In this document: piece after piece, positions 30,326-56,075 of the stretch
Numbering within the stretch: position 1 is the first letter of the stretch
How the letters are laid out: each line of letters opens with the position of its first letter
Assembly: GCA_964016885.1 (NCBI GenBank)
Contig: OZ024746.1
Span: 21,638,001 to 21,702,000 of the forward strand
Reading direction: 5' to 3'
Origin: Eledone cirrhosa
Taxonomy: Eukaryota
Length of the DNA: 64,000 bases
Made by a program: the position numbers and the translations under genes
The notes under the pieces: generated by a model
Told to the model about the DNA's origin: nothing
Databases searched by the model: none
What the model saw: only the letters and a program-made list of their open reading frames with translations

Positions 30326-30865
30326 ATATAATAAATTGTGTGTGTGTATATATATATACATATATATATATATAGAGAGAGAGAAAGAGAGAGGGGGGGG
30401 ACAATAAATTGTGTGTGTGCATATATATATATACACACACACACATATGCACACAATTTATTATAGATTTTATTTCTGTTAATTCAATTATCCACAAAAT
30501 TTCAACATAATGGGTTCTATTTAACTTCTATATTTTCTGAAGTCTCTTGGCTGATTAAATCCATTGTTATATATATTTATTATATAATATGCTTACTTTG
30601 AATATGAAAATTAGATCCATTCATTTTAGTTACATTTTTTGTATTCCACTTTTGATCTCAACATTTCTTTTCACCAATACTGCATCTGTCTAAATTATTA
30701 GATTTAGTGCAAATTAAATATAACCAATTTACTTGTTATTTCACACCTTTTCATATATTGAGCTCAGTAATGCTTAAATGTATTTTAAAACTGTGCAAAT
30801 AACATTGTTTGATTTTATCACATTTTATTTTATATGTGTATTTGTATTATTGTAGTTGGAACACT

Positions 30866-31021
30866 TACTGTCTATATTCAAATATAAGCTGAGGAATATC
30901 TGAACAAAAAAAAAATCGATGGTAGAAGGGGTGTGTGCTTATATTGGCATTATTTATTTTGAGAACAATACCTTAACATAAGTATGAGCAGCCTATTATG
31001 GCTGGTTTAAATGCTAAAGGC
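30866..31021. mobile_element. Partial pogo-type MITE followed by partial piggyBac-type MITE
   Basis: TACTGTCTATATTCAAATATAAGC..GATGGTAGAAGGGG matches 34470-34667; GGCTGGTTTAAATGCTAAAGG matches 10377-10579. Confidence 0.55.
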
Positions 31022-31460
31022 ATTTTTGAGGTTCCACATTCAATTTGCAGAACACTTACATCTATGCTATTGTGTCTATCCTCTCAATCATTATTTTTAG
31101 ATGTTCTCTTTCGAAAATAAATTTAGAAAAATGTTTTACTCACCACTGACTGCAAAATTAAATTTCATATTCCTACTTTGTAAATGGTCAAGAGCTTTTT
31201 TAATGTAACTGTCTGGACTGCTGGTTTCTGGAAGCTTTAAAAAAATACAATATATATATTTGCCGAATTTGGAGGGTGAGTATGGTTTGGTAGGAGTCAT
31301 GGGTACAGGTTAGCATTCAAGTTAGGGTGTTTGCTGAGGGTTAGTAAGCTGATTAGAGCAACAACGATCTTATTTATGTGTATAGGTTGAATTATTAAAT
31401 ACATATCCAGTACCTCATTTTCTGGCATAATTACCAATTTCTCGAACACAATATAATTAT

Positions 31461-31906
31461 GCGGAGTGGGGAGACCCAAGAAGACCTGGGATGAGGTGAT
31501 AAAAGCCGACCTTACAATTACACCGCTCAAAGGCGATGACACACGACCGTGACCTCTGGTGTCACGCAGTAATACAGAGTACCCGACCTCCCATGGGTAC
31601 AAGCTGAAGCATATGGACAATATGCCCCCACATCCTCCCACTGCAAAGTGGTCGTGGAGGTGCCACGGCAAAAAAGCACCCAGCCCACACTGTAAAGTGG
31701 ACGTGTAGGCGCCATGGAAAAAAGCACCCAGCAGTCACTGTAAATGAGGTTGGTGTTAAGAAGGGCATCCAGCTGTAGAAATCAAGCCAAAATCAGTTCC
31801 TGTATGAGCAAGGCATGGTCAGCTGACCAGACACTGCCCACAACAGGACAACCCGTCTAACCCATGCTAGCATGGAAGAACTGACGTAAAACGGTGACGA
31901 TGATGA
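31461..31906 (+). mobile_element. RTE LINE 3' end (family 2)
   Basis: GVGRPKKTWDEVIKADL; 3' UTR with ~45-nt CACTGTAAAGTGG subrepeats; reverse complement of 54635-55073. Confidence 0.9.
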
Positions 31907-31970
31907 TAATATATATATATATGAGAGAGAGAGGGAAGAGGAGGGAGAAATTATCAGGGAAGTGGTCTTT

Positions 31971-32110
31971 CCTGATGATTTCTTATGAATGAAACAGTTC
32001 TAGTCATGTACAAGTCATTTCTATATTAAGATGAATATACCTATATTCTACTAATATATTGAGTACCGTTATTAACAGTGGTCACCTCCCAATTTACATC
32101 AGGATCCTAC
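31971..32110 (+). mobile_element. Short repeat with hammerhead-like 5' motif, probably a Penelope pLTR remnant
   Basis: CTGATGA...GAAACAGTTCTAGTC..., then ATTGAGTACC; related copies at 46913-47044 (+) and 48112-48302. Confidence 0.45.
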
Positions 32111-32112
32111 AT

Positions 32113-32183
<71 letters not shown>

Positions 32184-32606
32184 GTGTATGAGCTTATGTC
32201 AATATGTATATGTTTATGTATGCAACAAATCAACCAGAATACACAATAGTTGATTCTCAGACAATATTGTATGAGATGTTCAGTACTTGAGATATTCTTT
32301 TGTGCAGCTTTCTCAGCACCAAGTTAAATATGAAATAAAATAGTCCACATGTAAAGTAAAATAATACAAAATATCTATAAATAACAAGAATTTATTAAGT
32401 AGCATCAGGACATCTATTATTAATACTTTTTTTTTATTTTTATAAAGAATAGCATGTGACATTACACAGTTGACTAGTGGGAATCTGAATCTCTGGCATA
32501 CTCTATCATACATTTTCATATTGCAGACAACTTTTGCTATTTTGAGAAATTCAACGTGTTATTTGTCCATACATTAGAATTATTTTCTTTGCTGATTTTG
32601 ACTTAT

Positions 32607-32667
32607 AAAAAAGGAAAGAAAGAAAGAAGGAAAGAAAGAAAGAAAGAAGGAAGGAAGGAAAGAAGGA

Positions 32668-32737
<70 letters not shown>

Positions 32738-32762
32738 AAGAATGAAAGAAAGGGAGAAAGAG

Positions 32763-32801
<39 letters not shown>

Positions 32802-32881
32802 GAAAGAAAGAGAGAGAGAAAGAAAGAAAGAAAGAGAAAGAAAGAGAGAGAAAGAAAGAAAGAAAGAAAGAAAGAGGGGGG

Positions 32882-32924
<43 letters not shown>

Positions 32925-33090
32925 ATGAAAGAAAGGGAGAAAGAGAGAAAGAAAGAAAGAAAGAAAGAAAGAGAAAGAAAGAGAGAGAGAAAGAAAGAAA
33001 GAAAGAAAGAAAGAGAAAGAAAGAGAGAGAGAGAGAGAAAGAAAGAAAGAAAGAGGGAGGGGGGGGGGGGGAAAGAAAGAAAGAAAAAAT
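32607..33090. repeat. (GAAA)n/(GA)n polypurine tract with internal duplication
   Basis: Direct reading; AAGAATGAAAGAAAGGGAGAAAGAGAG occurs twice. Confidence 0.97.
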
Positions 33091-33519
33091 AGTTTATATA
33101 TATATATTTTTTTTAATGTAACATGTTTTCTCAAAGCTATGCCACGGGGATTTGTATTTCAGTGAATGTCATCAGAAAGGTATCCCCAAATTACTGATTT
33201 TTGGCAGGCAATTTCAAAAATAGTAAGACTTAACACAAAGTAATAATACAGGTAAAAAAGGAATAATTAAAATAATTATTCTTTCTTTATTTTAAACTGC
33301 ATCATCATCATCATCTTTTTTTGGAGGGGGAAAACAATCAAAAAATGATGACGATGATGATTATGATGCAGTTTTTTTTTAAAATAATAATATAAAAATT
33401 AAAAGCTAAAACATTTGGTATATTTTTCAAAATTTGCATAATATTAGTTCAAATGTTATGTCATTTTATCAGATCTGAAAGCTTATTAATTCACTTCCCG
33501 GTTTGATCTATAAAACATT

Positions 33520-33800
33520 TGGTCATTGGTGTGATAGAGAAGAGTTTGTCTGTATTAAGTTTATCTAAAGTATGTCACTCGCCATGATTATCTTGCTGGA
33601 AGAGTGCTCCTCTGGGCTCCGGATACAAAGAGTCAAGTTGGCTGGCCATATATCATCTTGAAATCGATCATCAAGATAGATATAGGCCCCAAAGAAATGG
33701 ATTAGCATGCTATAATGGTTGACCATGGACTCTGGAGCTCCAACTTTGTCAACGTTTCACCACTGCCTCAAGGCATCACATGACTCAAGAAAAGAAGAGG
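33520..33800 (+). mobile_element. Degraded RTE 3' end
   Basis: YVTRHDYLAGRVLLWAPDTKSQVG(W/R)P..LKSIIKIDIG...M.D..LW pattern. Confidence 0.55.
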
Positions 33801-33887
33801 AGTATGTCAACTAATTGGAATCCATCCAATTTCTAAGTTATGCTCATTGAACTATATTAAAATATATTGGGTACCTTCTGCTTACAG

Positions 33888-33918
33888 TGATAATTACATG
33901 TTAACTACATGTTGACAG
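33888..33918 (+). other. Possible micro-exon (UTR or start-codon exon)
   Basis: Acceptor ccttctgcttacag and donor CAG|gtaagt; all three frames contain stops, but it ends ATG TTG ACA G (phase 1). Confidence 0.2.
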
Positions 33919-34469
33919 GTAAGTGAACTAGATTGGATCCATGACTACTCAATTCTTTTTCAGATTGATACTTGATAAATGTGAAAAAATTCCATTTAAA
34001 TTGTTTAGCACATTAATTCTAATTCTAATTTATCATGTTCAGAATCATTAGATCTGTTTGTTCACAGAATACTTCTTCTTTGTGAAGACCAGAAGACTAT
34101 TATATAGCTTTTTGTCATTGTTTAGAGGCAAATATATATAATGTAGTAACAAAATATATATAATGTAGTAACAAAATAAACAAAGTAAACAGAAATAAAA
34201 TAAAGGATTTTGAAGTCAGAGTTTGGTTTTTGATTTTGTAATGAGTTATTATAAATACTTCAGTAATTCTTTGAATATTTTAGATATAAATATTTTAGAA
34301 ATATTTTAGAAATAATATTCTACCTTCATTATGTATGTAAATATTTATCTCTTCAAGGTGAATATTTCAATTAATTCATAAGGTAGTTCTAGGGAGTGTA
34401 AATGAATCATTAATTTTGCTAATACAGAAGACAAATTTATCCTCATCATCCAGATATTTCCTCCATATA

Positions 34470-34667
34470 TTATCAGATATACTCGAATATAAGCCAGCTG
34501 ATGCTACTATTTTGTCAGAGAAATGGGCAAAAATCCAAACCTTATTTATGTAGTATTTGAAGTTGGTGAAAATCGTCAAAATAGTAACCCCAAAGATAAG
34601 CTGACCCCCTTCTACCATCAAGTTTTTGGTTACACATTCATCAGTTTATATTCAAGTATATAAGGTA
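34470..34667. mobile_element. pogo/Tigger-type MITE
   Basis: Termini ATATACTCGAATATAAGC / GTTTATATTCAAGTATATAAGGTA are inverted; TA ends. Confidence 0.65.
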
Positions 34668-35554
34668 CTTCTATTACTACTAGAAAGTTCTTTTCCCTTA
34701 ACTTACTGAGAGTATGCTTGCAAAAGCTAACCCAGTAATGCAATTTAGTGAATCTCAAATTAACTAACTTAAAGCCAAAAAGGCATATGGTGCATAGCTA
34801 GATGAGTTATCTGTATCTCTCAAACTGCACAATGTTTTTTACAGTATGTTACAGTATGTTTGTTCTTTTCAAAGATTATTAAAACCTTGATCATATTCAT
34901 CATAATGAGTTTGAGAATCTCGGGCAAAAGTTTCACCGATTACTTCCCTTCGTTCCTGGTTACATGCTGTACTGAAGAAATCACCAGAAAAAGAGGCATA
35001 TAAACGTTACCCGATCCTGCCACATGCCCCACCCATTATAACTACCCTCTCGACGAATTACATTACATCCCATTCCCACTCTACCTAAGACTACCACCAA
35101 CCATCTACTTAAATCCTAAAGCATTAGTCTTAACTCCATAACAGCTGTTTCTATCATCACAGTACTCTCTCTATCCAAGACCACCCCTTCCCTTTCCTCT
35201 CATCACCTTGTCAAAGTGCGGGTGGCTTGAAAAATGCAATCAATACACACTGTAAGGTGGTTGGTCATAAGAATGACATCTAACCATGTAAATCAGGCCA
35301 AACAAAAGGTTGAGAGGTCTTTTAGTTAGATCAAGATCACAACAGCTTCCCTAGAGTCAATGACATGAAGATGTGCTTGGGACACACTATAGAGTGGGAG
35401 AGTGCAGACCCTGGTCAATTTAAGAATTAAGCAGCTATAATCCTTGCTAACAAGAAGATTAGGTGTTAAATTATGATGATGAGGATGATGGAGGTAGTGG
35501 CTCAAAGTTTAAAGGAGGGTTTACCATAGGAGTTTCTGTAGGCAAATAATCTAG

Positions 35555-35800
35555 TGTTAATAGCAGAGTATGGATGAACTGAAGAAGAAAATGATTAGAT
35601 AGAAGGAAGGTATGGAGACAAATGTTATGAAGATGAATATCAGAATGATGAATGGTAAAGCATGAAGTGGGATAGAAAGAAGAGGAAAATGACTATGTTT
35701 AGTGTACAAGAAGAGTGTTGGAGTAAATCCTATTAAATGTACAATATGCACTGGTTTACAGCTAAAATTCAGTATAAGGTGTGTATGGAAAGGTGCTACA
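35555..35800 (+). mobile_element. Degraded RTE fragment (post-YADD region and PHD start)
   Basis: LIAE.MDELKKKMIR.KEGMET...GK.LCLVYKKSVGVNPIKCTIC, homologous to 28823-29100. Confidence 0.65.
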
Positions 35801-36482
35801 TGATACAGTAGTGATGGTGGTGGTGGAAGTAGTAGTAGTAGGAGGAGGGGAGGAGCAACAACAGTAGGAGTAGTAGTATCGTAGATCATTTTATTAGTCT
35901 TCCTAATTATAATAAAAATTCATGGAAAGTGTAATGCAAGAGATAGAAAATGCAACAATATTTACCTCACCCATAAGTCTTTTACCATATCCTTGTGAAG
36001 TCTGGAAAGCATCAATAATTTGACAAAGGACTTTTCCCTTTGAAATATCTTCAACTGTAACCAGTTTTGAAAATCCATTGTTTTCAAGAACAGATGTGGC
36101 CCAATTAAGATAAACCTAAAAAATGGAAAAAATATATATTCTTTATGGGAAAAACTGTTTAAGAGAAACATGTATCAATTTATCATAAACTCATGATGGA
36201 TGGTTTAGAGAGATTAAAAAACCAAAGAATAAAGAGTATGATTCAAAATAACTTCCCAAAAATAATTCTCCAGTTTTAGTTAAGCTTTTCAAAATACAAA
36301 GTATATGCAAAAAGCTCAGGGAACTACTGTTTTGTTGATGACTTAGGAAAGTTTTTACTGATAAAAATGAACTGAGGCTCAGTAGAGTGTGGTTTCCCCA
36401 GACCTTTGTGTAATCAACTCTTTTCAATTATACAGTGATTCTGCTTTTCCTTGCAATAATTCCAGCCAATTTAGTATGTATG

Positions 36483-38078
36483 TATTATTACTATAAGAAA
36501 GAGTAAATTGGCAGTATTGGTATGGTGTCAGATGACATGATGACATGCTTTGCAGTATAGACTTATGGCTTTTTACATTCTGAGTTCAAATCCCACCATG
36601 GTTAGTTTTGCCTTTCATCCTTACGATGTTGATAAAATAAAGTATCAGAAACACACTGGGGGTGATTTAATTGACTCCCCCCCCCCCCAAAAAAAAAATT
36701 GCTGGCCTTGTGCCTATAGTAGAAATCATTATTATTACTATAAGAAAGAGTGAATTGGCAGTATCGGTAGGGTGTCAGATGACATCCATTGCGCAGCATA
36801 GAGTTACGGCTCATTACATTCCAAGTTCAAATCTGCCATGGTTAGTTTTGTCTTTAATACTTATGGCATCGATAAAATAAAGTATCAGAAACACACTGGG
36901 GAATAATGTCAAATAACTTGTTATTTGACTTTCCCCCTTTCCCTTCAAATGTTTGGCCTTGTGCCTAAATCAGAAACCGGTGGATTGGCAGTATTGGTAG
37001 AGGGTTGGACGCCATGCTTTGACGTATAGAGTTACAGCCCTTGCCTTTCTGAGTTCAAATCCTGCCAAGGTTAACTTTGCCTTTCATCCTTATGGGGTCG
37101 ATAAAATAAAGTACCAGTAATGCACTGGGTAATTGCTGGCCTTGTGCCTAACGTAGAAACCATTATAAGAAAGAGTTGTATTGTTCTTGGACATATCACA
37201 GTGCTAGTAAGCAAGAACTATCAATCATTCTGCTATCATTTTCTAGGCTATTAATACAATCTTTACAATGTATACTTCTCAATAGTTGCAAAGGTTAACT
37301 TTGCCTTTCATCCTTACGGGGTCCATAAAATAAAGTACCAGTAATACACTGGGTAATTGCCTTGTGCCAAAAGTAGAAACAATTATTAGGTATTTCATGC
37401 TTTGACGCAAAGAGTTACGGCCCTTGCCATTCTGAGTTCAAATCCTGCCGAGGTCAATCTTGCCTTTGATCCTTACAGGGTCGATAAAAATAAAGTACCA
37501 GTAATGTACTGGGTAATTGCTGGCCTTGTGTCAAAAGTAGAAACAATTATTAGGTATTTCAATAATACACTGGGGTCAATTTAATCACCCCCCCCACCTC
37601 CAAAATTTCTGGCCTTGTGCTTATAGTAGAAATCATTATTAGGTATTTCAAAAGGTGGTGTATTGGTGGTATCGGTAGAGCATTGGAAAACATGCTTTGT
37701 GGTATAGAGTTACAACCCTTTACATCAAATCCCATCAAGGTTAGCTTTGCTTTTTGTCATTACAGGGTCGATAAAATAAAGTACCAGTATTGCACCTGGG
37801 TTGATTTAATCGACGTTCCCCTCCCCCCTAAATTATTGGCCTTGTGCCTAAATCAGAAACTATTATTTCTTTATGTAGGCGGTGGATTGGCAGTATTGGT
37901 AGAGGGTCGGACGCCATGCTTTGACGCAAAGAGTTACGGCCTTTTCTATTCTGAGTTCAAATCCCGCCGAGGTTTACTTTGCCTTTCATCCTTACAGGGT
38001 CGATAAAATAAAGTACCAGTAATACACTGGGTAATTGCTGGCCTTGTGCCAAAAGTAGAAACAATTATTTCTTTATGT
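36483..38078 (+). mobile_element. Array of about eight SINE family A copies or fragments
   Basis: Repeated head/core/tail units; target copies ATTATTAGGTATTTCA x3, ATTATTTCTTTATGT x2, TATAAGAAAGAGT x3. Confidence 0.92.
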
Positions 38079-39192
38079 TTCTACAGCAACAAGAATGTAA
38101 CTGTTCCTAAGAGAAGAAACTAGGTGGCCACTAAAGACTAGAATAAAAGTATATTTGAAACCTTTTATAACCCCTTCATTAATATATTTCTAATGAAAGA
38201 CATTGCTGAAGATTTTCAAACATTTTGTTAAGCATAATACAGGTGCTTACATAAAATTATGATAGCAGGTTTTAGAGAAATATAAAGGTTTTAAAAGAAA
38301 TAGTTTTGTATCTGAGAACCAGGGAAAATGTGTCATCAAAAGGGTTAATGAAATGTGAAACATTAAATGTAGGAATGGCTGACAAAAGAAATGAAAATAT
38401 ATACCATATATATATATGGAATGAATTTCTATTGCTGATAAACTATAACTCTATATGTATAGATTCAGGATTAAGACTTCAGCAAATGAACCAATCAAAA
38501 CATAAAATAGATATATACTGTCAAAATGGAGTTGTCAGCCAGGATATGAATTATCAATACTTTGTCCACAGACCCAAAATGCTCTTGTGTTGATCATCAG
38601 CTATGTATATTCCAATAGTTGGTAGATGTAAGAGATATAATTAGATAGTAATTGATACATGGTTGATGTGACTGTTTGATTTGTGCTTGATAAAGGAGTT
38701 CAATGAGCTGTAGGGGGATACCTTTTGAAGAATTAAAGTAAATCTGTCAAAGGAAGAATTTATTAGGGATTTTAAATTAGGATTTACATTGACTTTACAT
38801 GTAGAAGAATGCAAACAGAAATTGAATGGCTAGTACTGTTCAAAGCCAAGCCAAAGATATCTCAGAATAGGATGAGTTGCTTTAAATAGTTTATCTTTCT
38901 GTAGACAAAGTGGTTAGTAGTAATCACCTTAAAAGCATTAATTATATCAAAGAACATTCCATATACACTATACTAAAGTTGGTGTTTATACAATATGGTG
39001 TTTGAATCCATTAATCACCTTCAGAGATATAGTGGAAACTTGTTAGGTTATATATTATATATTATCACCATATTTACATTATCAGTACTGTGTGCCTTCC
39101 TACATGTTTGATTATATATATGTATATATGTATGTATATATATATATACATATATATGTGCACATATATAAATGCACATATACATATATATA

Positions 39193-40113
39193 TTTCGTTT
39201 CTGAATTTGTTTAGCAAGATTCTTTATCTGAAAACGTGTGTTGAAACCGATATTGTTATACTTTGGGAGGGTCATGTTGCCAATAAGAAACACACGCACC
39301 AGTTGCTTTCACTTCAATTTATTATAATAAATTTATAAATTTAGGAATTTATAAATTTCCGGTTGGTTGGTTGGTTCCACAACCAGATGGTTGTTTATAT
39401 ATTGTCAAAGTTCTTTCGTCACACATCTTGCACCTCTTCAGTGACTGGGGATTCTTTTCTTTGTTTTTGTGCCTCTCCTTTGTTCTGTCTTACGCCATCT
39501 TGTTTCTCTGTGTGTGTTGTGTGCTCAGTCTGCGCATGCGCCACATCCGGGTGTCTGTGTGTGTTTATATTCGTTTATTTATTTGTTTATTTACATGTTA
39601 CTGGTTGGTTGTTTGTTCTATGTGCGTGTGTGTTTTCATTTTTTCCTTAATTGTAAGTTGTGATGTTGCGTCTTTTAAAAGACGCAATGTTTAGACAAAT
39701 CACAGAGGCAATAAACATAAATGAACTCCAACCAAAATTAAATAGACCAATAGTAACCAACCAGTAACATGTAAATAAACAAATAAATAAACAAATATAA
39801 ACACACACAGACACCCGGATGTAACACATGCGCAAACTAAGCACACAACACAAACAAAAACAAGATGGCGTAGGACAGAACAAAGGAGAGGCACAAAAAC
39901 AAAGAAAAGAATCCACAGTCACTGAAGAGGTCACAGAATGTGTGACGAAAGAACTTTGACAATATATAAACAATCATCTGGTTGTGGAACCAACCAACCA
40001 ACCGGAAATTTATAAATTCCTAAATTTATAAATTTATTATAATAAATTGAAGTGAAAGCAACTGGTGCGTGTGTTTCTTATTGGCAACATGACCCTCCCA
40101 AAGTATAACAATA
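39193..40113. mobile_element. Penelope-like element remnant: inverted pseudo-LTRs around a GIY-YIG C-terminus (copy 1)
   Basis: Arms 39251-39610 / 39755-40113; spacer encodes KDAMFRQITEAININELQPKLNR (R..EA..I....P.LN); each arm holds a hammerhead motif; ORF start MTLPKYNNIGFNTRFQIKNLAKQIQKR runs into the one-sided tail. Confidence 0.85.
39918..39960 (+). ncRNA. Minimal type-I hammerhead ribozyme motif
   Basis: GUCA-CUGAAGA-G-GUCACA-gaaug-UGUGAC-GAAA-GAAC-UU-UGAC: stem I GUCA/UGAC, 6-bp stem II, 2-bp stem III; one extra G before stem II. Confidence 0.7.
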
Positions 40114-40295
40114 CATATATATAAATATATACATACCGTCCCACCCTTGCAAGCAGGGAAAGGTGGACATAAAATGATGATGATGATGATGATATATATA
40201 TATACACATAAACACACATATACATACATATATATACATATATACATATATGTATACACACACACTCACACATGTATATATACACATGTACTTGT

Positions 40296-40585
40296 GAAGG
40301 CAGGTAGCTCAATGCTCAAAGAGTTGAACTCACAATCATGAGGTTGTGAGATTGAGTCCTGGACCAGATGATGCATTGTGACTTTGAGCAAGACACTTCA
40401 TTTTGTGTTATTATAGTTCACTCAGCTGTTGAAATATGTTGTGACATCACTGGTGCCAAGCTGTATCAGCCTTTACCTTTCCCTTGGACAACAATAGTGG
40501 CATGAAGAGAGGTGACTGGTATGCATGGGCGACTGCTGATCTTCCAGAAACAACCTTTCCCAGACTTTCACCTTGGAGAGGAACT
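40296..40585 (+). mobile_element. SINE family B, near full length
   Basis: tRNA-like head, TTGAGCAAGACACTTCATTT core, CACTCAGCTG, tail shared with 42168-42452. Confidence 0.75.
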
Positions 40586-40779
40586 TACATGCTCTCAAAA
40601 AATTGACTTCAGATAAAAATTCCAGTGTCTTACTACTAGCATTCAAAATAACATCAAAATTTAAAATAGTGTTCACACCAATGATAAAGATGTTGAAAAG
40701 AACATAAAGAACACAAAAGTTTAAGGAAAAACAAGAAAGAACTAAAATGGAATTCCAAAATATACTACAGAGTAAATGA

Positions 40780-41225
40780 AAAGAAAAATCATTCCACAGC
40801 CAATACATTGTATGACTCAACAGAGGGGAAGTAAACTAAAGTGTGTGCCAACAATGACGAAAATGCTCCAGGCTAAAAGCAGAAACAAGAAGAACAATTA
40901 TTACTAAAAAAAGAAAAATTATGGAAAAAAGATACAAAAATATAAAAATGAAAAAATAAAAAGCATCAAGTGCCTATTCTGCAGATAATATAATGATGTG
41001 ATTGGTCACATAATTTTATAGCAACCCAGGTCTTGCCAAGTCTAAGTATATTCACAGACATGATTGAGTAACAGCTAAACATTTCAATTTGAAAATGAAA
41101 ATAAGAAGTGGTCTAAACATGTATCTATGATATTACATTGCAATAACCTAGCCAGATTCTGGGGTATGCCTGCTGGCACTGACATAGAGGTTAAGGCTAA
41201 CTGTCTAAATATAATTATCAAGGAC
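40780..41225 (+). mobile_element. Degraded R4/Dong-type LINE C-terminal fragment
   Basis: LKAETR..II....KCLFCR...IGHI....PGLAKSKYIHRHD; AN.NIIIKD near the PD motif. Confidence 0.55.
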
Positions 41226-42167
41226 TTGATTGAAGACTATACTCTTCTAGATATTTGATCTTCTCTTCTTGATCACCTACTTATTCTTGAGAGGGTCATG
41301 GGGGAAGAGTCCTCAAACACTCCTTCAAGTGGGTCCTGTCAGAAGCAACCATCTGCTTATTTCTTTTAAATATTATTTATTAAATTGATCCCTGGCAGAG
41401 AGGCTAAACTAGTCAATATTATATATAAGTATTGAATTGAGAGTTGTTACATCATCATCTAGAATGCCTTGCTAAAATCCAGTTAAGATCAACTATATAG
41501 GAAGTCCTTTTCTTCTCCCATTTATTCATGAGATGGTTATGGAGGTGCAGAGTCTTCAAACACTCTTTTTAGCAGGTCCTATCAAAAGCAACCATCTCCA
41601 AATGATCTGGTTGGATCCTCAAGCAAGACTAGCTGAGTTCATGGATGTTATCCAACCATCTTGCTCTGGTCTAGCTACCCCCTGGGTCTCCTACCAGTTG
41701 GTTTTGCCTGTATAATCTGTCCAGCAATTCTTTCCTGAGACATTCTAACTACAGGTCTGTTGTATCAGAGCTATGATCTCTCAATTTGGAAATTGAAATT
41801 AGCAGAATGAAAGGGATGAAAATGAAAGCAGTAAATATGTTTTTAAAAAAAAAAAAAAAATTAGAAAAATATGATCAAAATCATTTAAACCATGCCAGGG
41901 ATCACACACAACCTTATACACAGTTCAAAAGCAGTAGCTGCTAAGCATAGAATACATCCTACACAAATTTCTTTCAATTCAATAAGCACAACTGAAACAG
42001 AACACTCACTAATGTCATATATTCTATACAATAACCAACCAATAATATAACACAACCCACATAACTCCATGGAATTAGCCCTGTTGGTGTCCAATACTAT
42101 AATATTAACAACTCACAAAACTATTGTAATTCAAACAACATATGCTCTAAACATTGAATTCACTATG

Positions 42168-42452
42168 CTGAGGTCGTAAGTTCAATTCCTGGATCAGGTG
42201 GTGTGTTGTATCCTTTATTTCATGTTGCTCCAGTTAACTCAGCTGTAGAAATAAGTTGCAATATCACTGGTGCCAAACTGCATCAGCCTTTATCTTTCCT
42301 TTGGACAAAATTGGTGACCTGGAGAGGGAGACTTGTATGTATGGGTGACTGCTGGTCTTCCATGATATCTTTGCCTGGGCATGTGCCTTAGAGAGGTACT
42401 TTCTAAGTACAAATTTTCATGGTTATTCATGACCAAAAGAGGATCCTTGCCT
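42168..42452 (+). mobile_element. SINE family B
   Basis: AGTTCAATTCCTGG B-box, GTTGCTCCAGTTAACTCAGCTG core, tail as 40296-40585. Confidence 0.75.
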
Positions 42453-42544
42453 ACTTTTATATTCTAAACCATTCAACACTAAAACACATAACTTAAACCA
42501 CACAACACATAAAAAAACACATTAATAACATTCATAACAATATT

Positions 42545-43077
42545 TAATAGTGGTTTCTGATTTAGCACAAAACCAACAATTTTGGGGAAGGGAAAAGTCG
42601 AATAAATCAACCTCAGTGAATTACTGGTAGTTTATTTTATTGACTTTGTAAGGATTAAAGGCAAAGCTAACCATGACAGGATTTGAACTCAGAATGTAAA
42701 AGAACGTAACTATATACCACAAAGCATGTTGTCCGACACTTTATTGACACTGCCAATCTACTGCCCTAACATTTGATAATAACAACATTTATTAAAAATC
42801 AAAGTTTTTTTTTTTTTTGGGGGGGGGGGGGGGTCTTATTGTGGTGGATACCTAAATGTATTCATTAGTGAATAATAATAATATTATAATAATTGTTTCT
42901 ACGTTAGGCACAAGGCCAGCAATTATCCCAGTGCATTACTAGTACTTTATTTTATCGACCCCCATAAGGATGAAAGGCAAAGTTAACCTCGGCAGGATTT
43001 GAACTCAGACTGTAAAGGGACGTAATTCTATGCTGGAAAGCATGGTGTCCGACCCTCTACTGATACTGCCAATCCAA
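42545..43077 (-). mobile_element. Two SINE family A copies (42545-42768, 42888-43077)
   Basis: Complete tail-core-B-box-A-box reverse complements. Confidence 0.88.
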
Positions 43078-43097
43078 TTATAATAATATCATAATAT

Positions 43098-43265
43098 TAT
43101 TAACATTTGGTTTGTTTACAAGTAAACAACCTCATAAAACACCACGTGGTAGATGACGACATCATCCTTTTGTTCCAGCGGTAGCTGAGAGAAAATAATT
43201 GACAATTGACAATTGTTTGAGAGTGTTTTGAGGCTGTTTACTCGTAAACAAACCAAATATTAATA
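43098..43265. mobile_element. Small MITE-like element with ~45-bp terminal inverted repeats
   Basis: TATTAACATTTGGTTTGTTTACAAGTAAACAACCTCATAAAACAC / GTGTTTTGAGGCTGTTTACTCGTAAACAAACCAAATATTAATA, in an (AAT)-rich site. Confidence 0.7.
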
Positions 43266-43659
43266 TTATTATTATGCACTCACATATAACATTTATTAAA
43301 TTCTATTTAAAGGCTCCTAATCACATGAAAACTCAGAATTGGTATGGAGCATTCTTTGGGAAACATTGTTTTCTGCATTAGTTGAAATGCTAAAATAACC
43401 CCAGGAACATAAAGAACAAACCTCACATGGAAAATCTGATGTAGTGTTCAAACAGAGTGCTGCACACGCTTCAGAAACATAAGTGCAGTTGTTGGTGCAA
43501 CATAATGTCACATAGAACAGAACACTACATTCCCAAAATAGAATACTGCACACACCTCAGAAACATGTACATGTATCTGATGGTGGTATAGGAAGTCACA
43601 TGAAACTTTTGAACATGATAATAATAATAATAATAATAATGATAGTAGTAGTAATAGTA

Positions 43660-44855
43660 ATAATGCTTTCTTTATTAGCCACAAGGGTTTACACAAAGTA
43701 AGACATTAAGGACAGTACAAGACAATACAGGACGGTACAAATGGGCATTTCTGCATGTAAAAAAAACAAAAACAGAGGATGTAAAAAAAAAGAAACAATG
43801 AAAAATTCCCCAATAGGGGGGGGACTTCCGAGGGACATTCATGGAGAAAGCCCATTAAAAAAGCCACGCTGACCTTGACCACCAGGGCAAGTGCCCTCTC
43901 CCAGTTTTCCACCTTTAATTTACAGGCACATACTCAGAGTCGGCCCATTCACTTGGGCCATTCTTGCCTCTCTCACCCATCTTCCAACAAAATGCTGGGA
44001 AGAGAGCACTTCCATTTCTACTCTGATTTTCCTTTTCAAATGAAATTTGAAAAAGTCAATCAGGGCATCACCGAAGAGTCAAGTGCTCGTCTTCAGCCCT
44101 TTCAAATGCGTCCACCACACTATCTCTTTCACCATGGCCACCAAACAGATAAAAACTGCCTGCCCTTCCCGGCTAAAGGGAGAGGGTGGGGCAATCCTCA
44201 CAATGGACTCAGCTGATAGCCGGATCCGTCCTACACACGACAGCAGGTGTTCTACATAAACCCACAAGGTAGCAATGCTCGGACACTGGACGAGTGCATG
44301 CAGGACGGTTTCGTCGCCCTGCGTGCATCTCAGACAAGCCTAGCTGATGGCACTTCCATGCCTGTAGAGTTTATCCTGAACTGGCAAAGCTCCTCGGTAG
44401 CACTGCCAGGCCAAGGATTTCTGGAAGTTGTCCATAGGCCCCGGCTCAAAAGTTCTTCCGAAGAGATTGGCTAGTTGATTTTCGTCGACGCCTAGAGTTT
44501 CTCCAAGTACGTTGTTGCTCTTCCCCTCCACTAATCCTCTATAGAACGCCAAGGTGGAGTTTCCACCGTTCACATTGGCCGACTGGTCGAGGGCTGTGGG
44601 CGCCTGAAGACATTCCAGTCTCCAAGCGCTCCCTCTCGGTCTTCACTTGACCCAGGACTGCAGCTCCGTCAAGGAGACGAGCTGGGGAAAGACGCGTCTA
44701 GCAAACAGCGACCACACCTGATCACCGTCGAGGAACAGGTGGAGATGTCATAGCCTGAGTGCGTGTCTGCGCATTATCAGCCACGGCATGCCCAACCCTC
44801 CACGTAGCAGGTGTTGACAGCAGATGGACCGCCTGACCATCGGAGCGCGTCAAGC
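43660..44855 (-). mobile_element. Tx1/L1-clade LINE, 5'-truncated 3' end (post-RT, zf-RVT CCHC, 3' UTR)
   Basis: RGGLGMP...FQKSLAWQCYRGALPVQDKL...ACLRCTQGDETVLHALVQC...W; GC-rich; both ends in (AAT)/(TAG) repeats. Confidence 0.9.
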
Positions 44856-45625
44856 GAAAGAGCAATATAGTAATAGTAATAATAATAATGAATTCTTTAT
44901 TATTGATATATTATCATCATTATAAATCATTATCATGATTAAACCCCCCCCCCCTCCCCCATAGCAATATTATTAACCAATCCATTTCCTCAGAAATCAA
45001 GCTGTAATATTTACGGCATTGAGTACATTCCTAACTGTGGAGCTATTGTCATCACAGTTATAAGTTCTACAATTCTATTTTATTTCATTTTTATTTGTTT
45101 TATTTTGTATTATTCAGTTGTTATTTTTTTTTTTTTTTTTGTATCTAAAAGGAAATATAGTAATAAGCATACAAACTAAAATCTAATAAACAACAACAAC
45201 AACGACAATGAAGATTATGATGATGATGAGGATAATCCTGATATAGGAAATAAATAAAACGAAAGTAGTAGCCTCCAAGACATGATGGTTATGAAGAGTA
45301 ATTGATGGAATATTTGATGTGATATAGAAAGGAATTTGTAGGATGGGGGAGAACATGGTGAAAGAGAAGAAAATAAGAAACATACTAACCAAGAAGGTTG
45401 GAGAAAAAAGAAAGGAACTCACACACACATAAACTCACACAAACACATAAATACATTTTGGTTACAGGGGCTACCACTAGTGTATGGAACTTATAAACCA
45501 AGAAAGATAAGGTAGATACATTATAATTAAAAAGATAAATTAAAATGAAACAACCCACTTTTATAACTATATACGCCAAAACTACACCTGATGTACTCCT
45601 TCCATACACATGCACACATGTGTGT

Positions 45626-45733
45626 ATCATGACTCGTGCACTGTTCATTTTACTGATGTTTGTGCATTGCCCTATGTACTGTACATGCACTTTTTGATGA
45701 GTTGTGGTGCACCTGGGCACTGTACACAATATT

Positions 45734-45766
<33 letters not shown>

Positions 45767-45890
45767 CATGACTCATACACTGTTCATTTTCCTGACATTT
45801 GTACATTATTCTATGTACTATACATGCACCTTTGATGAGTTGTAGTGCACCTGAGCACTGTACACAATAATTTCATTATTATTATTATTA
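45626..45890 (+). repeat. Tandem pair of ~139-bp units, each ending in (ATT)n
   Basis: ATCATGACTC..CACTGTTCATTTT..TTTGATGAGTTGT.GTGCACCTG.GCACTGTACACAAT..TTTCATTATT twice (45626, 45765). Confidence 0.9.
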
Positions 45891-45892
45891 AT

Positions 45893-46090
45893 GGCTGTGG
45901 ATTGGCAGTATCGGTAGAGGGTCGGACGCTATGCTTTGACGCATAGAGTTACGGCCCTTGCCATTCTGAGTTCAAATCCCGCCGAGGTTAACTTTGCCTT
46001 TCATCCTTACAGGGTCGATAAAATAAAGTACCAGTAATGCACTGGGTAATTGCTGGCCTTGTGCCTAACGTAGAAACAATTATTATTATT
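45893..46090 (+). mobile_element. SINE family A, full-length young copy
   Basis: A-box TGGCAGTATCGG, B-box GAGTTCAAATCC, core CTTTGCCTTTCATCCTTACAGGGTCGATAAAATAAAGTACC (resembles the Meta/MESC SINE domain), (ATT)n tail. Confidence 0.93.
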
Positions 46091-46472
46091 TATATCACAC
46101 ACGTACAAACTCAGAGAGAAAGCTTCACCAAAATACGATTCACACTGATTTCCGGCAAAACATTCTCTCTCTGAGTTTGTACGTGTGTGATATATAGTTA
46201 TAAAGGTGGGTTGTTCCATTGTAATTTCTCTTTTTAATTATAGTGTATCTACCTCATCTTTCTTAGTTTATAAGTTCCTTACGCTAGTGGTATCCCCTAT
46301 AACTTGATAAACACACACTCTCTCTCGTATTTTCTTCTCTATATTATATTTGAAGAGCCCAGGATTCCTTTCCCTTTGAGCTCATAAATTACAGGGACTA
46401 ACACGAGTTTCTGACTCTGTTGCTTCATTTTGATATATATATATATCATCATCATCATTATCATCATCATAT

Positions 46473-46860
46473 CATCATCATCATCACCGTTTTACGTCCG
46501 TTCTTCCACGCTAGCATGGGTTAGACGGGTTGTCCTGTTGTGGGCAGTGTCTGGTCGGCTGACCATGCCTTGCTCATACAGGAACTGATTTGGCTTGATT
46601 TCTACAGCTGGATGCCCTTCCTAACACCAACCTCGTTTACAGTGAGTGCTAGGTGCTTTTCCGTGGCGCCTACACGTCCACTTTACAGTGTGGGCTGGGT
46701 GCTTTTTTGCCGTGGCACCTCCACAACCACCTTGCGGTGGGAGGTGTGGGGGCATATTGTCTATATGCTTCAGCTTGTACCCATGGGAGGTCGGGTACTC
46801 TGTATTACTGCGTGACGCCAGAGGTCACGGTTGTGTGTCATCGCCTTTGAGAGGTGTAAT
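46473..46860 (-). mobile_element. RTE family 2 3' end
   Basis: Near-identical to 54635-55015; (CAT)n tail. Confidence 0.9.
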
Positions 46861-47042
46861 ATATATGATGATGATAATGATGATGATATATATATATCAA
46901 AATGAAGCAACGGGGATGATTTCTAAAGAATGAAACAGTTCTAGTCCTGTAGAATCTCATCTATATTAAAACTTTTATACTCTGCTATGTATTGAGTACC
47001 TTACTTACTGTGGTTACCTCCGATTCAACCCAGAATAATTTA

Positions 47043-47084
<42 letters not shown>

Positions 47085-47139
47085 CTCATCATCATCAATG
47101 TTTTATGTGGTTTTCATGCTGGCATGGGTTAGACAATAT

Positions 47140-47973
47140 ATCATCATCATCATCATCATCGTTTAACGTCCATCTTCCACGCTTGCATGGGTTTGGACGG
47201 GAATTTTCCCACTTGAGGCAAGATTGGTTGTCTTGCTCGTATAGGACTGTCTGGTGGGTTTTCTACGGCTGGATGCCCTTCCTAACACCAACCACGTTTA
47301 CAGTGTGGACTGGGAGGTTTTTACCGTGTTACCTACACGGCCACATTACAGCGTGGACTCTGTGTTTTTTTTTGTTGTGACACCTACATGACCTAATTTA
47401 TTTCGGACTGGATGTTGTGGTACCAACATAACTTTACACCGAAAGGGGTGGTGTGGATGGGGTGGGGGTAGTGAGACGAGTGAGTATTTTTTTTTTTTTT
47501 TTTTTTTTTTTTTGTTAAGAGGTGCCTACTGACTGTAGGTTTCGCTTTGTACTTAGGCAAGGCGGGTCTTCTGTATTACTGTGTAGCGCCAGTAACATTG
47601 TCTTGGAGAGGTGTAAGTGTGTGAGGTCGGAATTTACAAGTCGTCCTAGGTTTTTCTGGGTCTGCCTACTCCGTGGCTACCGTCTATTTTTATTGCCCTG
47701 CACTTATTTATACAGCTGTCGTCTTTCATGCGCATCACGTGACCATACCAACGTAGTCTTCTCTCGAGTAAACAACATCTGATTGCTCTTATTCCTAATT
47801 TCTCCCTTAGTTCATTTATGCTTTGCCGTTCACGTATATTACTATTACACATCCAACGGAGTATGCAAGCTTCGTTCCTCTCCAGTCTGCATATATCCTC
47901 TGCACACAATGCCCAAGTCTCACTGCCATGTAACATTGCTGTTCGTATGCGGGCATCATACAGCCTGCCTTTC

Positions 47974-47976
<3 letters not shown>
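47140..47976 (-). mobile_element. RTE family 1 3' fragment
   Basis: MKGRLYDARIRTAMLHGSETWALC...RRLRWYGHV; 3' UTR as 27790; bounded by TA repeats. Confidence 0.93.
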
Positions 47977-48015
<39 letters not shown>

Positions 48016-48304
48016 CATCTTATACAAAATTACTGAGGGGTAGATCCCAATAATGTAATCTATATGTTATATATATTGGTGACAACTTAAGTATATTATA
48101 AATATATAATAGGTGGATTCCCGATGTATATATCAGGAGCTTACCACAGTTAAAAAAGGTACTCAAATTGTTAGTAGAGAATAGGTATCTTTATTTTATG
48201 TTATAAAAATGACTTCTACAGGGCTAGAACTATTTCATTCGTAAGAAATCATCATGATTATTTTTTATGAATGAAACAGTTCTAGTCCTGTAGAAGTAAT
48301 TTCA

Positions 48305-48503
48305 ATAATAATAATTGTTTCTACAATAGGTACAAGGCCAGCAATTATCCCAGTGTATTACTGGTGCTTTATTTTATCGACCCCCGTTAGGATGAAAGGC
48401 AAAGTTAACCTCGACGGGATTTGAACTCAGAACGGCAAGGGCCCTAACTCTATGCATCAAAGCATGGCGTCCGACCCTCTACCGATACTGCCAATTCACC
48501 GCC
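48305..48503 (-). mobile_element. SINE family A, full-length young copy
   Basis: Reverse complement of the 45893-46090 consensus. Confidence 0.92.
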
Positions 48504-49906
48504 CTAATAATGATATATATATATAAAGAGAGTGAGAAGTAGACATTTTGACTGTAACAGAGGTAGAGCAACTGAAAGAAACTGGAAAAAAGAAGAAAAT
48601 AAAAGAAGAAAGAAGTGTCAAAGAAAATTCTAGTCAAAATACTGTATCATAAAAGTGAAAGAAAATAAAGAAAATAAAAAAAGGTTGTAAAAAAAGTTAA
48701 ATAAAAAAAAATGAAGAATGAGTATGGCTTTCTGGAGATTTGGCATGCTGGTCCTGTGATGCTACATTGTTATTTATGATGGTAGCTATACCTCTTTGGC
48801 ATTTCAGTAATTTTGTATATTGGTTATTTGCTACTGAAGATCTATAGCATCTATAGCATTATAGTAGCTTTGCTATTATGTTGGTTTCCTGCTCATATAG
48901 TAAAAATGCCTTTATATATAAGTTGGTGCACAGCTTTTATTTTAATCCTTTATTCTTTAATTCTTTTACTGGTTTCGTTCATTAACCTGCAGTCATGTTG
49001 GGAAACTGACTTCTTTAGTTAATCATATCAACCCATTATTTATTTTATCAATTGCTTTTTGTCGGATTATTACGTTACAGAACATAAACAGAGACACAGA
49101 TACACACACATCTTTGCATACACATATATGAATGCATGCATACATACATACATTAATACATAACATCCCAGTTTGAAGGATATTAGTTCTAGGATATAAG
49201 ACTGTTTGTTTTGAAGTGTGTTTCTATTTATCTAAAATCTTTCCACCAAAATTTTATATCAGAACCTTGGTTGAGTTATGCTCCGAAGACCATTTTATTA
49301 ATGAGAATATTTAAATCTTTTTTAAAGTAGTGTCTTTCTTTAGAAATATGGTAACAAAGGGGGAGTGATTAATTCTAATCACAAAAGACAAGGGTGACAC
49401 CTCCAGAATCTAAATTAATGATAAATAGAATGAAATATTGCTTGCAGTAGAGCATGTGTTTGATGTATGTTATGTACAGTGGCAACTTCAAACATGCTTC
49501 AGTGTTTTTAGTTATGTCAGCCAAATAATTTGTTTTTACTGCTGTTGTTTACTCCCGTTCAACAATGAGTGATCAGATTTTCTTTATCCTTTTTATGCTT
49601 ACTTTGCTTCCTGGTGGCCTTCACTATTTTAATTTTCATATTCATTTATATCTGTCTATTTTGTGTGTGTTTTTTTTTTTTTGTTTCTCTATTGTAAGAA
49701 GTACCAGATACTTCCCCTAGTCTGTCATTGCTTAGTAGCTTTATATGGACCTTTAAATCGATTAATTAAATAAATGTAATGAAGGTTTTTTTTTAATCAT
49801 TACCATCCAGTGCTTCTCTCATTTTGTTATTATACTGAGTAAATTAAATAACTATAGGGATGTTTTCATTTTGGTCTGTGTATATTTTCAATTTGAATTT
49901 GTGCAG

Positions 49907-50017
49907 TTTTGAGGACGAAAGGAAAGCATGGACTTTTAGAGGGATTCTATGAAGATATCATTCCAAGCAGAATATCGATTGGGTGTTTTATACAGGTGTT
50001 TTTACAAGGAACCCACA
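49907..50017 (+). CDS. Candidate 111-nt internal coding exon (phase 1-1), product unknown
   Basis: Acceptor atttgtgcag, donor gtaagt; only the phase-1 frame is open: (V)LRTKGKHGLLEGFYEDIIPSRISIGCFIQVFLQGTH; not matched to any repeat in the window. Confidence 0.35.
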
Positions 50018-50369
50018 GTAAGTAGTGACAGGCAGAGAAAAATGTTTTTTAGAATGATTTGGCTTTCAGCATTTAAAGCACTTTATAAATATCTTTCAGT
50101 CAACTCACATAAAAACTTCCACATTGATGGTTGTTTTGTGTTATATCTTAATTACAGTTATATCAATATATAATATCAGTCAATAAAAAAAATGCCAGTC
50201 TAGTACTGGGGTCAATTCTCCCTCTATATCTCTTTCTTACTTCCTTTCTCTCACTCTCTTTATCCTTCTCAAGGAGAAATATGCTGTATTCAGACCTGGA
50301 AAGGAGATAAGCTTCACAAAGTTTTTAAAAAAGATGCCCTAAGAAATGTTGTATGTTAATATGGTGCTC

Positions 50370-50740
50370 ATAACATGAAATATTGCTTGATTTATGATCA
50401 TAATGTTATCAGTTCAATTCCTGGACAGGGTGCTGCTTTGTGTTCTTGAGTAAAATACTTTATTTCACATTGCTAAAATACACTCAGATAAGAGTGAGTA
50501 ACAGTAATAGTTGGGGAGTTAAACCTGTGATAGACTAACATCTTGACCAGGGAGAGTCTTGTATGTTGCTTAATGTCAAGGAAACCAGGGAAAAGCACCA
50601 GCCTGATGAGCCTCCAGGCTTAGAAAAGACTAAATCTGAGATGGACTGGCATCTTGACCAGGGAGAGTCTTCTAGCACTCAGTCATTTAGCATCAACGAA
50701 ACCGTGGGTAAGCACTGGCATAATCAGCTTTCGGCTTAGA
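50370..50740 (+). mobile_element. SINE family B with duplicated tail
   Basis: AGTTCAATTCCTGG, GTGTTCTTGAGTAAAATACTTTATTTC; CATCTTGACCAGGGAGAGTCTT occurs twice. Confidence 0.7.
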
Positions 50741-50946
50741 ATAAACTTTAATGTTGTTGCAGATATCAATGAAAATTTCACTCACAATTTGCATGAGAAT
50801 TTCTTAGCTGAGCTAGCAATCTATGAACTCATACAGCTTGATGTATCGCCTTGTAAAATGTTATATTTCAGGTATCAACCTACAGACGTTCAAGTGAAAC
50901 AGCAACTATATTGATCTCACCTATCTAGAGATTATCTATAGAGATT

Positions 50947-51240
50947 ATCATCATCCCCATTTAACATTCATTTTCCATGCTAGCATGGGTTAGATGGTGT
51001 GTCCTGTTATGAGTGGAGTCAGATCAGATGATTGTGTCTTGCCCATACAGAATTGTTCCTGGCTTGGTTTCTACAATTGGATGCCCTTCCAAAGACCAAC
51101 CACATTTAGAGTGTGGACTGGGTGCTTTTCATCATGGCACCAACACAACCACTTTACAGAGTGGACTGTATGCTTTTTGTAGTGACATCAATATGACCAC
51201 TTTAAAGTGTATACTGGGTGCTTTTGTTGTGTCACCAAAA
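50947..51240 (-). mobile_element. RTE-type 3' UTR fragment with three ~48-nt subrepeats
   Basis: CCATGCTAGCATGGGTTAGA..GGATGCCCTTCC; ACCACTTTA.AG.GTG.ACTG x3. Confidence 0.7.
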
Positions 51241-52614: not shown

Positions 52615-52632
52615 ATGATGATGGTGGTAGTG

Positions 52633-52669
<37 letters not shown>

Positions 52670-55103: not shown

Positions 55104-55106
<3 letters not shown>

Positions 55107-56075
55107 CGTTTCTGAATTTGTTTAGCAAGATTCTTTATCTGAAAACGTGTGTTGAAACCGATATTGTTATACTTTGGGAGGGTCATGTTGCCAATAAGAA
55201 ACACAAGCACCAGTTGCTTTCACTTCAATTTATTATAATAAATTTATAAATTTAGGAAGTTATAAATTTCCGGTTGGTTGGTTGGTTTCACAACCAGATG
55301 ATTGTTTATATATTGTCAAAGTTCTTTCGTCACACATTCTGTGACCTTTTCAGTGACTGGGGATTCTTTTCTTTGTTTTTGTGCCTCTCCTTTGTTCTGT
55401 CCTACGCCATCCTGTTGTGTGCTTAGTTTGAGCATGTGTTACATCCGGGTGTCTGTGTGTGTTTATATTTGTTTATTTATTTGTTTATTTACATGTTACT
55501 GGTTGGTTGTTTGTTCTATGTGCGTGTGTGTTTTCATTTTGTCCTTAATTGTAAGTTGTGATGTTGCATCTTTTAAAAGACGCATTGTTTAGACAAGTCA
55601 CAGAGGCAATAAACATAAATGAACTCCAACCAAAATTAAATAGAAAACATGGAACAGCAACATCACAACTTACAATTAAGGACAAAATGAAAACACACAT
55701 GCACATAGAATAAACAACCAACCAGTAACATGTAAATAAACAAATAAATAAACAAATATAAACAAACACAGACACCCGGATGTAACACATGCGCAAACTA
55801 AGCACACAACACAAACAAAAACAAGATGGCGTAGGACAGAACAAAGAAGAGGCACAAAAACAAAGAAAAGAATCCCCAGCCACTGAAGAGGTCACAGAAT
55901 GTGTGACGAATGAACTTTGACAATATATAAACAATCATCTGGTTGTGGAACCAACCAACCAACCGGAAATTTATAAATTCCTAAATTTATAAATTTATTA
56001 TAATAAATTGAAGTGAAAGCAACTGGTGTGTGTGTTTCTTATTGGCAACATGACCCTCCCAAAGTATAACAATAT
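55104..56075. mobile_element. Penelope-like inverted pseudo-LTR element (copy 2)
   Basis: Arms 55161-55567 / 55657-56075; spacer KDALFRQVTEAININELQPKLNRK; same tail, junction and end as 39193-40113. Confidence 0.85.

What the first reader, a model, noticed from the sequence alone, without database searches (positions are those of the whole stretch)
39193..40113. Fold-back Penelope-derived mini-element with hammerheads in both arms, present twice with an identical junction
Seen: ~360-410 bp inverted arms flank a spacer encoding R.(I/V)TEAININELQPKLN. Each arm reads 3' UTR, then a hammerhead motif, then ATG of MTLPKYNN..., and a 58-nt tail on one side only continues that ORF. The copy at 55104-56075 has the same tail end, the same far end and the same inversion junction (22-bp palindrome TTGCGTCTTTTAAAAGACGCAA at 39666-39687). 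Its flanks are unrelated, and both copies sit in (TA)n. Known: Penelope-like elements have pseudo-LTRs spanning the GIY-YIG C-terminus to the ORF start, often inverted with a short tail, and carry minimal hammerheads. Inference: inversion junctions normally arise separately at each insertion, so a shared junction suggests this composite moves as a unit. It would be a non-autonomous, palindromic, ribozyme-bearing element targeting TA microsatellites, with hammerheads on both strands. I do not know whether this family has been described.
Basis: partly seen in the sequence, partly recalled or inferred. Interest (0 to 1): 0.78.

Follow-up and report, generated by a model that had tools for sequence, protein, structure and literature searches.

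The report
Two ordinary inverted Penelope-like retrotransposon remnants
These are two truncated, fold-back insertions of a very abundant Penelope-like retrotransposon; they share one internal junction, likely because one neighbour overwrote the other during DNA repair, and the assembly holds no further copy that would mark the fold-back as a jumping element of its own.

Summary
The anatomy is real, but it is the normal insertion product of an abundant Penelope-like element (PLE), not a new mini-element. The parent (RT, CX4CxxC linker, C-terminal GIY-YIG) has 23,128 exact 3'-end matches; 26 inverted pairs lie among the first 100. In 24 of these 26, one arm stops at AACAATAT and the other 53-57 nt further on, so 'same tail, same far end' is a family rule; all 26 junctions differ. 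The A/B junction occurs only in these two copies, 16 kb apart, in 3.0 Gb. Their right arms share a private SNP and a 17-nt TA tract, while A's outer left arm carries another subfamily's haplotype at 8 of 8 diagnostic sites. Best reading: A was an independent insertion whose centre and right arm were overwritten from B's lineage by local ectopic gene conversion (inferred). The hammerheads fit the known minimal PLE type, but only 1 of 4 is intact, and a read-through RNA is predicted to bury them in a 360-410 bp duplex.

The parts
39193..40113 (.). Copy A: 5'-truncated inverted PLE insertion, mosaic of two subfamilies
39193..39250 (-). A tail (family end at +57), coding for the continuation of the ORF start
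39193..39669 (-). A left arm (family positions -420 to +57, counted from the AACAATAT end); outer part from at least -323 to -140 has another subfamily's haplotype
39195..39275 (-). ORF start MTLPKYNNIGFNTRFQIKNLAKQIQKR, the true N-terminus of the parent ORF
   Evidence: L080, L112 continue it
39404..39445 (-). Minimal type I hammerhead motif, core letters kept, helix II disrupted
39666..39687 (.). 22-bp palindrome: 11-nt snap-back copy of family position -506 joined to -420 through GCAA microhomology
39677..39746 (+). GIY-YIG C-terminal codons (KDAMFRQITEAININELQPKLNR)
39747..39754 (+). 8-nt filler replacing 76 nt of A's right arm (repair scar, inferred)
39755..40113 (+). A right arm (-361 to 0), same haplotype as B, shares a private SNP with B right arm
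39918..39960 (+). Intact minimal type I hammerhead motif (helix I 4 bp, CUGAAGA, extra G, G-C plus 6-bp helix II, GAAA, G-AA-C, U16.1, U17)
   Evidence: descriptor in PMC4209133
40115..40131 (+). 17-nt interrupted TA tract shared with B only
55104..56075 (.). Copy B: 5'-truncated inverted PLE insertion, both arms of one haplotype
55104..55567 (-). B left arm with tail (-420 to +57)
55315..55357 (-). Hammerhead motif with G8 to A
55564..55585 (.). Same junction as A, with two private changes
55575..56075 (+). B right arm (-506 to 0): GIY-YIG end, 3' UTR, hammerhead, ORF start
55879..55921 (+). Hammerhead motif with A15.1 to U and a helix I mismatch

Best explanation
Both copies are 5'-truncated, inverted insertions of an abundant C-terminal GIY-YIG Penelope-like retrotransposon, and they likely share their junction because B's lineage overwrote the centre and right arm of an independent neighbouring insertion (A) by local ectopic gene conversion. 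Shown: the parent family, its two fixed ends, one end per arm, junction diversity, confinement of this junction to two neighbours, shared right-arm variants, mosaic left arm of A. Inferred: the element's endonuclease nicks both strands of a (TA)n tract; each end primes cDNA at one of two AATAT|CG sites 57 nt apart in the RNA; the two short cDNAs are joined by microhomology, here with an 11-nt snap-back; later a break in A's inverted repeat was repaired from B, 16 kb away, the tract running from the inner left arm (between -420 and -324) to the right TA tract.
For: Parent: loci continue upstream into GIY-YIG (Pfam PF01541 above cut-off), linker and RT (RVT_1 only below cut-off) and the ORF start continues in L080 and L112. 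23,128 exact 3' ends; 52 of the first 100 form 26 inverted pairs. 24 of 26 use one end each (P 5e-6 against a coin toss), 26 of 26 junctions distinct. Junction only at A and B: 2 exact hits; 9 hits at up to 3 mismatches of which 7 differ within their first 7 letters, the junction side; top two of 40 scored of 177 candidates. A-right and B-right share a variant at -263 absent from the other arms and a 17-nt TA tract absent from 71 other ends; A-left has the other haplotype at 8 of 8 diagnostic sites it covers. In 18 other inverted copies with 20 or more diagnostic sites, arms differ at 0-2 sites in 14 and at 3-5 in 4, against 8 of 30 in A and 0 of 31 in B (one cross-insertion pair dropped). No flank homology. 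Published: inverted 5' copy with one-sided tail and (TA)n bias (PMC8557442), tail equals the stretch between two RT start sites (PMC11167929).
Against: No empty or unconverted allele was seen; conversion is inferred from haplotypes only. In the presumed converted tract B has about 10 private substitutions and A about 2, an asymmetry that a single early copy event does not predict. The second haplogroup was defined from only 5 arms (4-5 per site). No diagnostic site lies between -420 and -324 or between -140 and +57, so the crossover is not pinned and an internal patch from a third copy fits too. Pattern searches would miss a third copy with an indel inside the junction; the BLAST check scored only 40 of 177 candidates.
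Confidence: 0.6

Rival explanations
1. The whole of B was copied at DNA level into a nearby (TA)n tract (break repair primed on TA homology at both ends), and A's outer left arm was later patched from some other family copy.
For: Explains locality, unrelated flanks and the shared TA tract; about 23,000 family ends offer donors; the tail end is the same in both.
Against: Needs two events instead of one; the shared tail end is expected anyway from the family rule.
Confidence: 0.2
2. A read-through RNA of B was reverse-transcribed by the family's enzyme into a neighbouring (TA)n tract, primed in B's transcribed TA tail; the other target strand was primed on a second RNA of another subfamily and the two cDNAs annealed over -420 to -324.
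For: Fits the one-end-each rule, the carried-over TA tract and the mosaic left arm in one event.
Against: Landing within 16 kb of the source has a chance near 1e-5 unless insertion is local; 0 of 11 other neighbouring pairs that I picked from the list share breakpoints; arms from two subfamilies are otherwise not seen; the RNA would be an almost fully paired hairpin (818 of 921 nt).
Confidence: 0.12
3. One reading: a non-autonomous palindromic ribozyme element that moves as a unit through the genome.
For: Identical junction, identical ends, unrelated flanks.
Against: Two copies only, 16 kb apart; ends are family-wide; 3 of 4 hammerheads are damaged; A is a mosaic with an internal deletion.
Confidence: 0.04
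4. The same junction arose twice independently at a microhomology hot spot.
For: Snap-back at the same centre in 8 other loci; another junction recurs at 5 unlinked places on different haplotypes.
Against: Does not explain proximity, the shared -263 variant or the shared TA tract.
Confidence: 0.04

Closest known systems
C-terminal EN+ Penelope-like elements with a CX2-5CxxC linker (Neptune or Nematis clades; Craig et al. 2021, PMC8557442, passages read)
   Same: RT then linker C-x4-C-x2-C then GIY-YIG with CCHH-type residues; pLTR from the EN end to the ORF start; 5' truncation; inverted 5' copy; tail at one end; (TA)n targets.
   Different: Tail is 53-57 nt rather than 30-40; clade not settled by a tree; the motif at the DKG position reads DKS.
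Poseidon of Anolis carolinensis (PAc; Frangieh et al. 2024, PMC11167929, parts 1-2 of 4 read)
   Same: Two internal RT start sites inside the ORF start define the tail; both target strands are cut and extended; AT-rich targets.
   Different: PAc starts at a site not homologous to the target; here both ends fall on AATAT|CG, which can pair with a (TA)n primer, and inverted copies use one site per arm (24 of 26).
Minimal type I hammerheads of metazoan PLEs (Cervera and de la Pena 2014, PMC4209133, parts 1-2 of 4 read)
   Same: Short helix I, extra base between 9 and 10.1, G10.1-C11.1, long helix II, tiny helix III; that paper already notes pairs 100-700 bp apart on opposite strands.
   Different: Loop 3 (AA) is not palindromic; position 17 is U in this subfamily (A in another).
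Non-LTR retrozymes (bioRxiv 10.64898/2026.07.22.740005, part 1 of 5 read)
   Same: Non-coding PLE pLTR-related sequence with a type I hammerhead.
   Different: Retrozymes are head-to-tail tandem units forming families; these are head-to-head, two copies, no family.
L1 5' inversion by twin priming (recalled; named in passages of bioRxiv 10.1101/2024.12.14.628481)
   Same: Both target ends prime cDNA and the products join by microhomology, each insertion with its own junction.
   Different: Here both primers start near the same RNA site, so the arms overlap as an inverted repeat.

Membership tests
EN+ Penelope-like element (parent family) | C-terminal GIY-YIG endonuclease | tested here: met
   Pfam PF01541, 23.9 bits, cut-off 22.6, on L010; weaker or no hit on L073 and L081
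EN+ Penelope-like element (parent family) | RT upstream of EN in one ORF | tested here: inconclusive
   RT motifs (DVVSLYPSI, YVDD) precede linker and EN in the same copies; RVT_1 E 5e-4, below cut-off; no unbroken ORF among 13 long copies examined
EN+ Penelope-like element (parent family) | pLTR that runs through the 3' UTR into the ORF start | tested here: met
   MTLPKYNN continues as the ORF N-terminus in L080 and L112
EN+ Penelope-like element (parent family) | Inverted 5' copy and one-sided tail | tested here: met
   26 inverted pairs in 100 hits; 24 of 26 with the tail on one arm
Neptune or Nematis clade | CX2-5CxxC linker before GIY-YIG | tested here: met
   CIDKKCIIC in L009, L010, L012, L016
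Neptune or Nematis clade | RT groups with the clade in a tree | not tested
   No reference PLE proteins were fetched
Naiad | N-terminal EN | tested here: not met
   EN is C-terminal
Minimal type I hammerhead | Core CUGAnGA and GAAA, helices I and II, NUH site | tested here: met
   Core pattern in 95 of 117 family arms; fully intact in 1 of 4 window arms
Minimal type I hammerhead | Palindromic helix III for dimer cleavage | tested here: not met
   A-G-A-A-C-U leaves two A.A oppositions; cofolding two copies did not give the dimeric fold
Minimal type I hammerhead | Self-cleavage | not testable with these tools
   Needs an in vitro assay
Non-autonomous mobile unit (MITE-like or retrozyme) | Many dispersed copies with the same internal junction | tested here: not met
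   2 copies, 16 kb apart
Non-LTR retrozyme | Head-to-tail tandem units each with a hammerhead | tested here: not met
   Arms are head-to-head and single

The most novel reading that the evidence does not exclude
A PLE enzyme re-mobilised a fold-back transcript into the neighbourhood of its source, priming one target strand on that transcript and the other on an RNA of a different subfamily: direct genomic evidence for local hopping and two-RNA twin priming by a dimeric PLE machine.
Probability: 0.12. Interest if true: 0.6.

Novelty: new member of a known kind. Interest (0 to 1): 0.22.

Why it matters
As a proposed new mobile element it does not stand. What remains is modest: a high-copy PLE family in which inverted insertions use the two RT start sites one per arm (24 of 26) and both sites carry a short match to the (TA)n target, which differs from the one PLE studied in vitro and makes the twin-priming model countable on thousands of copies; and one apparent case of repair-driven copying between neighbouring fold-back copies.

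Tried and rejected
Rfam at E up to 1: no hammerhead hit; the hits are hairpin and microsatellite noise. A-to-G cluster in A-left as ADAR editing of a hairpin RNA: rejected, the same G letters stand in 22-41 other arms as a subfamily haplotype. A fixed 5' start at AAAAGACGCA: rejected, the element continues upstream. Segmental duplication: no flank homology between 29001-47600 and 47601-64000 beyond the element and dispersed repeats; none of the family in 10 kb either side of the window. Junction sharing between neighbours in general: 0 of 11 hand-picked pairs within about 25 kb. Sequencing runs: no RNA holder listed. Laying four contig sets on A was swamped by other family copies and showed neither an empty site nor a piece across the junction among the rows displayed; the junction was therefore not confirmed from reads and allele state is open. 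Earlier scan notes: nothing. Paper searches showed no description of this family or of a palindromic non-autonomous PLE unit; Repbase and Dfam were not available and I did not open the supplements of PMC8557442 or PMC4209133, which may hold related sequences. Lower divergence of the hammerhead core (1.3% against 5.6% in flanks) is not used as proof of selection because the flanks hold subfamily sites.

Full report
Observation. Measured against a real long family copy (L074; 0 = the AACAATAT end), both read: reversed arm from +57 to -420, seven bases, forward arm from -506 to 0. The junction is an 11-nt reverse copy of the forward arm's start, joined to -420 through GCAA. The palindrome is perfect in A only. 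A's right arm lacks -436 to -362. Outside the TA tracts the flanks share nothing but dispersed repeats.

The parent. A search with copy B returned 3,541 candidates, 40 scored, at 94-96% over the forward arm. These loci run on upstream into a GIY-YIG domain (Pfam above cut-off for L010; below or absent for two other pieces), a C-x4-C-x2-C linker and an RT (RVT_1 below cut-off). L080 and L112 show that MTLPKYNN is the true ORF start. None of the 13 long copies had an unbroken ORF. By the features in PMC8557442 (passages) this is a C-terminal EN+ PLE of the Neptune or Nematis type; I built no tree. The host looks like an octopod to me from recalled repeat types; this was not tested.

The architecture is the family norm. 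A 32-mer at the 3' end has 23,128 exact matches. Of the first 100 listed, 52 form 26 outward-ending inverted pairs. I fetched all 26: 24 have one arm ending at 0 and the other at +53 to +57, 2 have the tail on both, none lacks it on both (P 5e-6 against equal odds), and all 26 breakpoint pairs differ. So the shared tail end and far end carry no information about unit mobility. Both ends fall on AATAT followed by CG in the RNA, a short match to a (TA)n primer. Published work covers this: inverted 5' copy, one-sided tail and (TA)n bias (PMC8557442), tail equal to the stretch between two RT start sites with both strands extended (PMC11167929, parts 1-2 of 4), and hammerhead pairs on opposite strands 100-700 bp apart (PMC4209133, parts 1-2 of 4).

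The junction is private to two neighbours. An exact 30-mer gave 2 hits. A 26-mer at up to 3 mismatches gave 9, of which 7 differ only within their first 7 letters, the junction side. BLAST with 91 nt ranked A and B first; I fetched four of the other hits and they had other breakpoints. The same central snap-back occurs at 8 other loci, each resolved differently. A different junction (-493/-506) occurs at 5 unlinked places on different haplotypes; of 28 between-locus arm comparisons 26 share no rare variant and 2 share one. Identical junctions can therefore recur without descent.

Why A and B share it. Here descent is real: the right arms share a change at -263 seen in no other arm, and a 17-nt interrupted TA tract seen in 0 of 71 other ends. 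Two copies within 16 kb of 3.0 Gb has a chance near 1e-5 for a dispersed process (my arithmetic), so the process was local. B's arms match at 31 of 31 diagnostic sites, as expected of one insertion; A's differ at 8 of 30, more than any of 18 other copies with 20 or more sites (one pair from two separate insertions dropped). At the 8 sites that separate the two haplogroups and lie in A-left (16 and 5 reference arms), A-left has the second type throughout and the other three arms the first. One event explains all of it: an independent second-type insertion at A broke in its inverted repeat and was repaired from B. That inverted repeats break and that nearby homologous copies serve as templates is established knowledge, recalled; one search gave listings only. 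Against: B has about 10 private changes in the tract and A about 2, and no earlier state was observed. Whole-copy transfer plus a later patch, or local retrotransposition with two RNAs, remain possible. Among 11 other neighbouring pairs that I picked by hand none shares breakpoints, so this is an occasional event.

Hammerheads. The motif matches the minimal PLE type, and its core pattern stands in 95 of 117 family arms. In the window only A-right is intact. Loop 3 is not palindromic and position 17 is U, which from recall is the weakest cleavage site. Any one transcript carries one motif in sense and the other in antisense; folding pairs 818 of 921 nt (A) and 864 of 972 (B), burying both. Activity was not tested.

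Verdict. Observation confirmed; interpretation as a new mobile palindromic ribozyme element not supported. New member of a known kind, interest 0.22. Searches of the paper library showed no description of this family; repeat databases and the papers' supplements were not consulted, so it may already be catalogued. Also seen: bioRxiv 10.64898/2026.07.22.740005 (part 1 of 5), PMC13282606 (passages), bioRxiv 10.1101/2024.12.14.628481 (passages).

Noticed in passing
window 16787-17344: Perfect 278-bp inverted repeat with a 2-nt loop, centred inside a SINE-like repeat; either a very recent fold-back or an assembly artefact.
   Followed up: no
window 56096-56196 and 56197-56510: A hairpin of about 45 bp directly after B's TA tract, followed by pieces of other TA-nested repeats that resemble flanks of L044 and L056.
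   Followed up: no
family-wide, L087-L111: Inverted copies use the two ends one per arm in 24 of 26 cases, and both ends lie on AATAT followed by CG, 57 nt apart.
   Followed up: yes
L146-L150 (C1, C3, C4): A hairpin-type junction (-493/-506) recurs at 5 unlinked places on different subfamily haplotypes: a microhomology hot spot.
   Followed up: yes
L077:149-1834 (+): A 562-aa open frame that looks like RT plus GIY-YIG of a second, unrelated PLE family near a copy of this one.
   Followed up: no
window 27790-28611 and 47149-47980; 31451-31914, 46469-46860 and 54629-55084: Two further dispersed repeat families (88% over 851 nt; 93-95% over 400-470 nt), the second ending at B's left TA tract.
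   Followed up: no
L010:2758-2935, L018:1117-1191: Older relatives (80-85%) with the same ORF start and hammerhead region, so the lineage has several waves.
   Followed up: no
family hammerhead: Subfamilies differ at the cleavage position (U in about 71% of arms, A in most others) and in a fifth helix I pair.
   Followed up: partly
runs X4 and X6: Contig sets labelled as two other organisms also hold this repeat family, one at high depth.
   Followed up: partly
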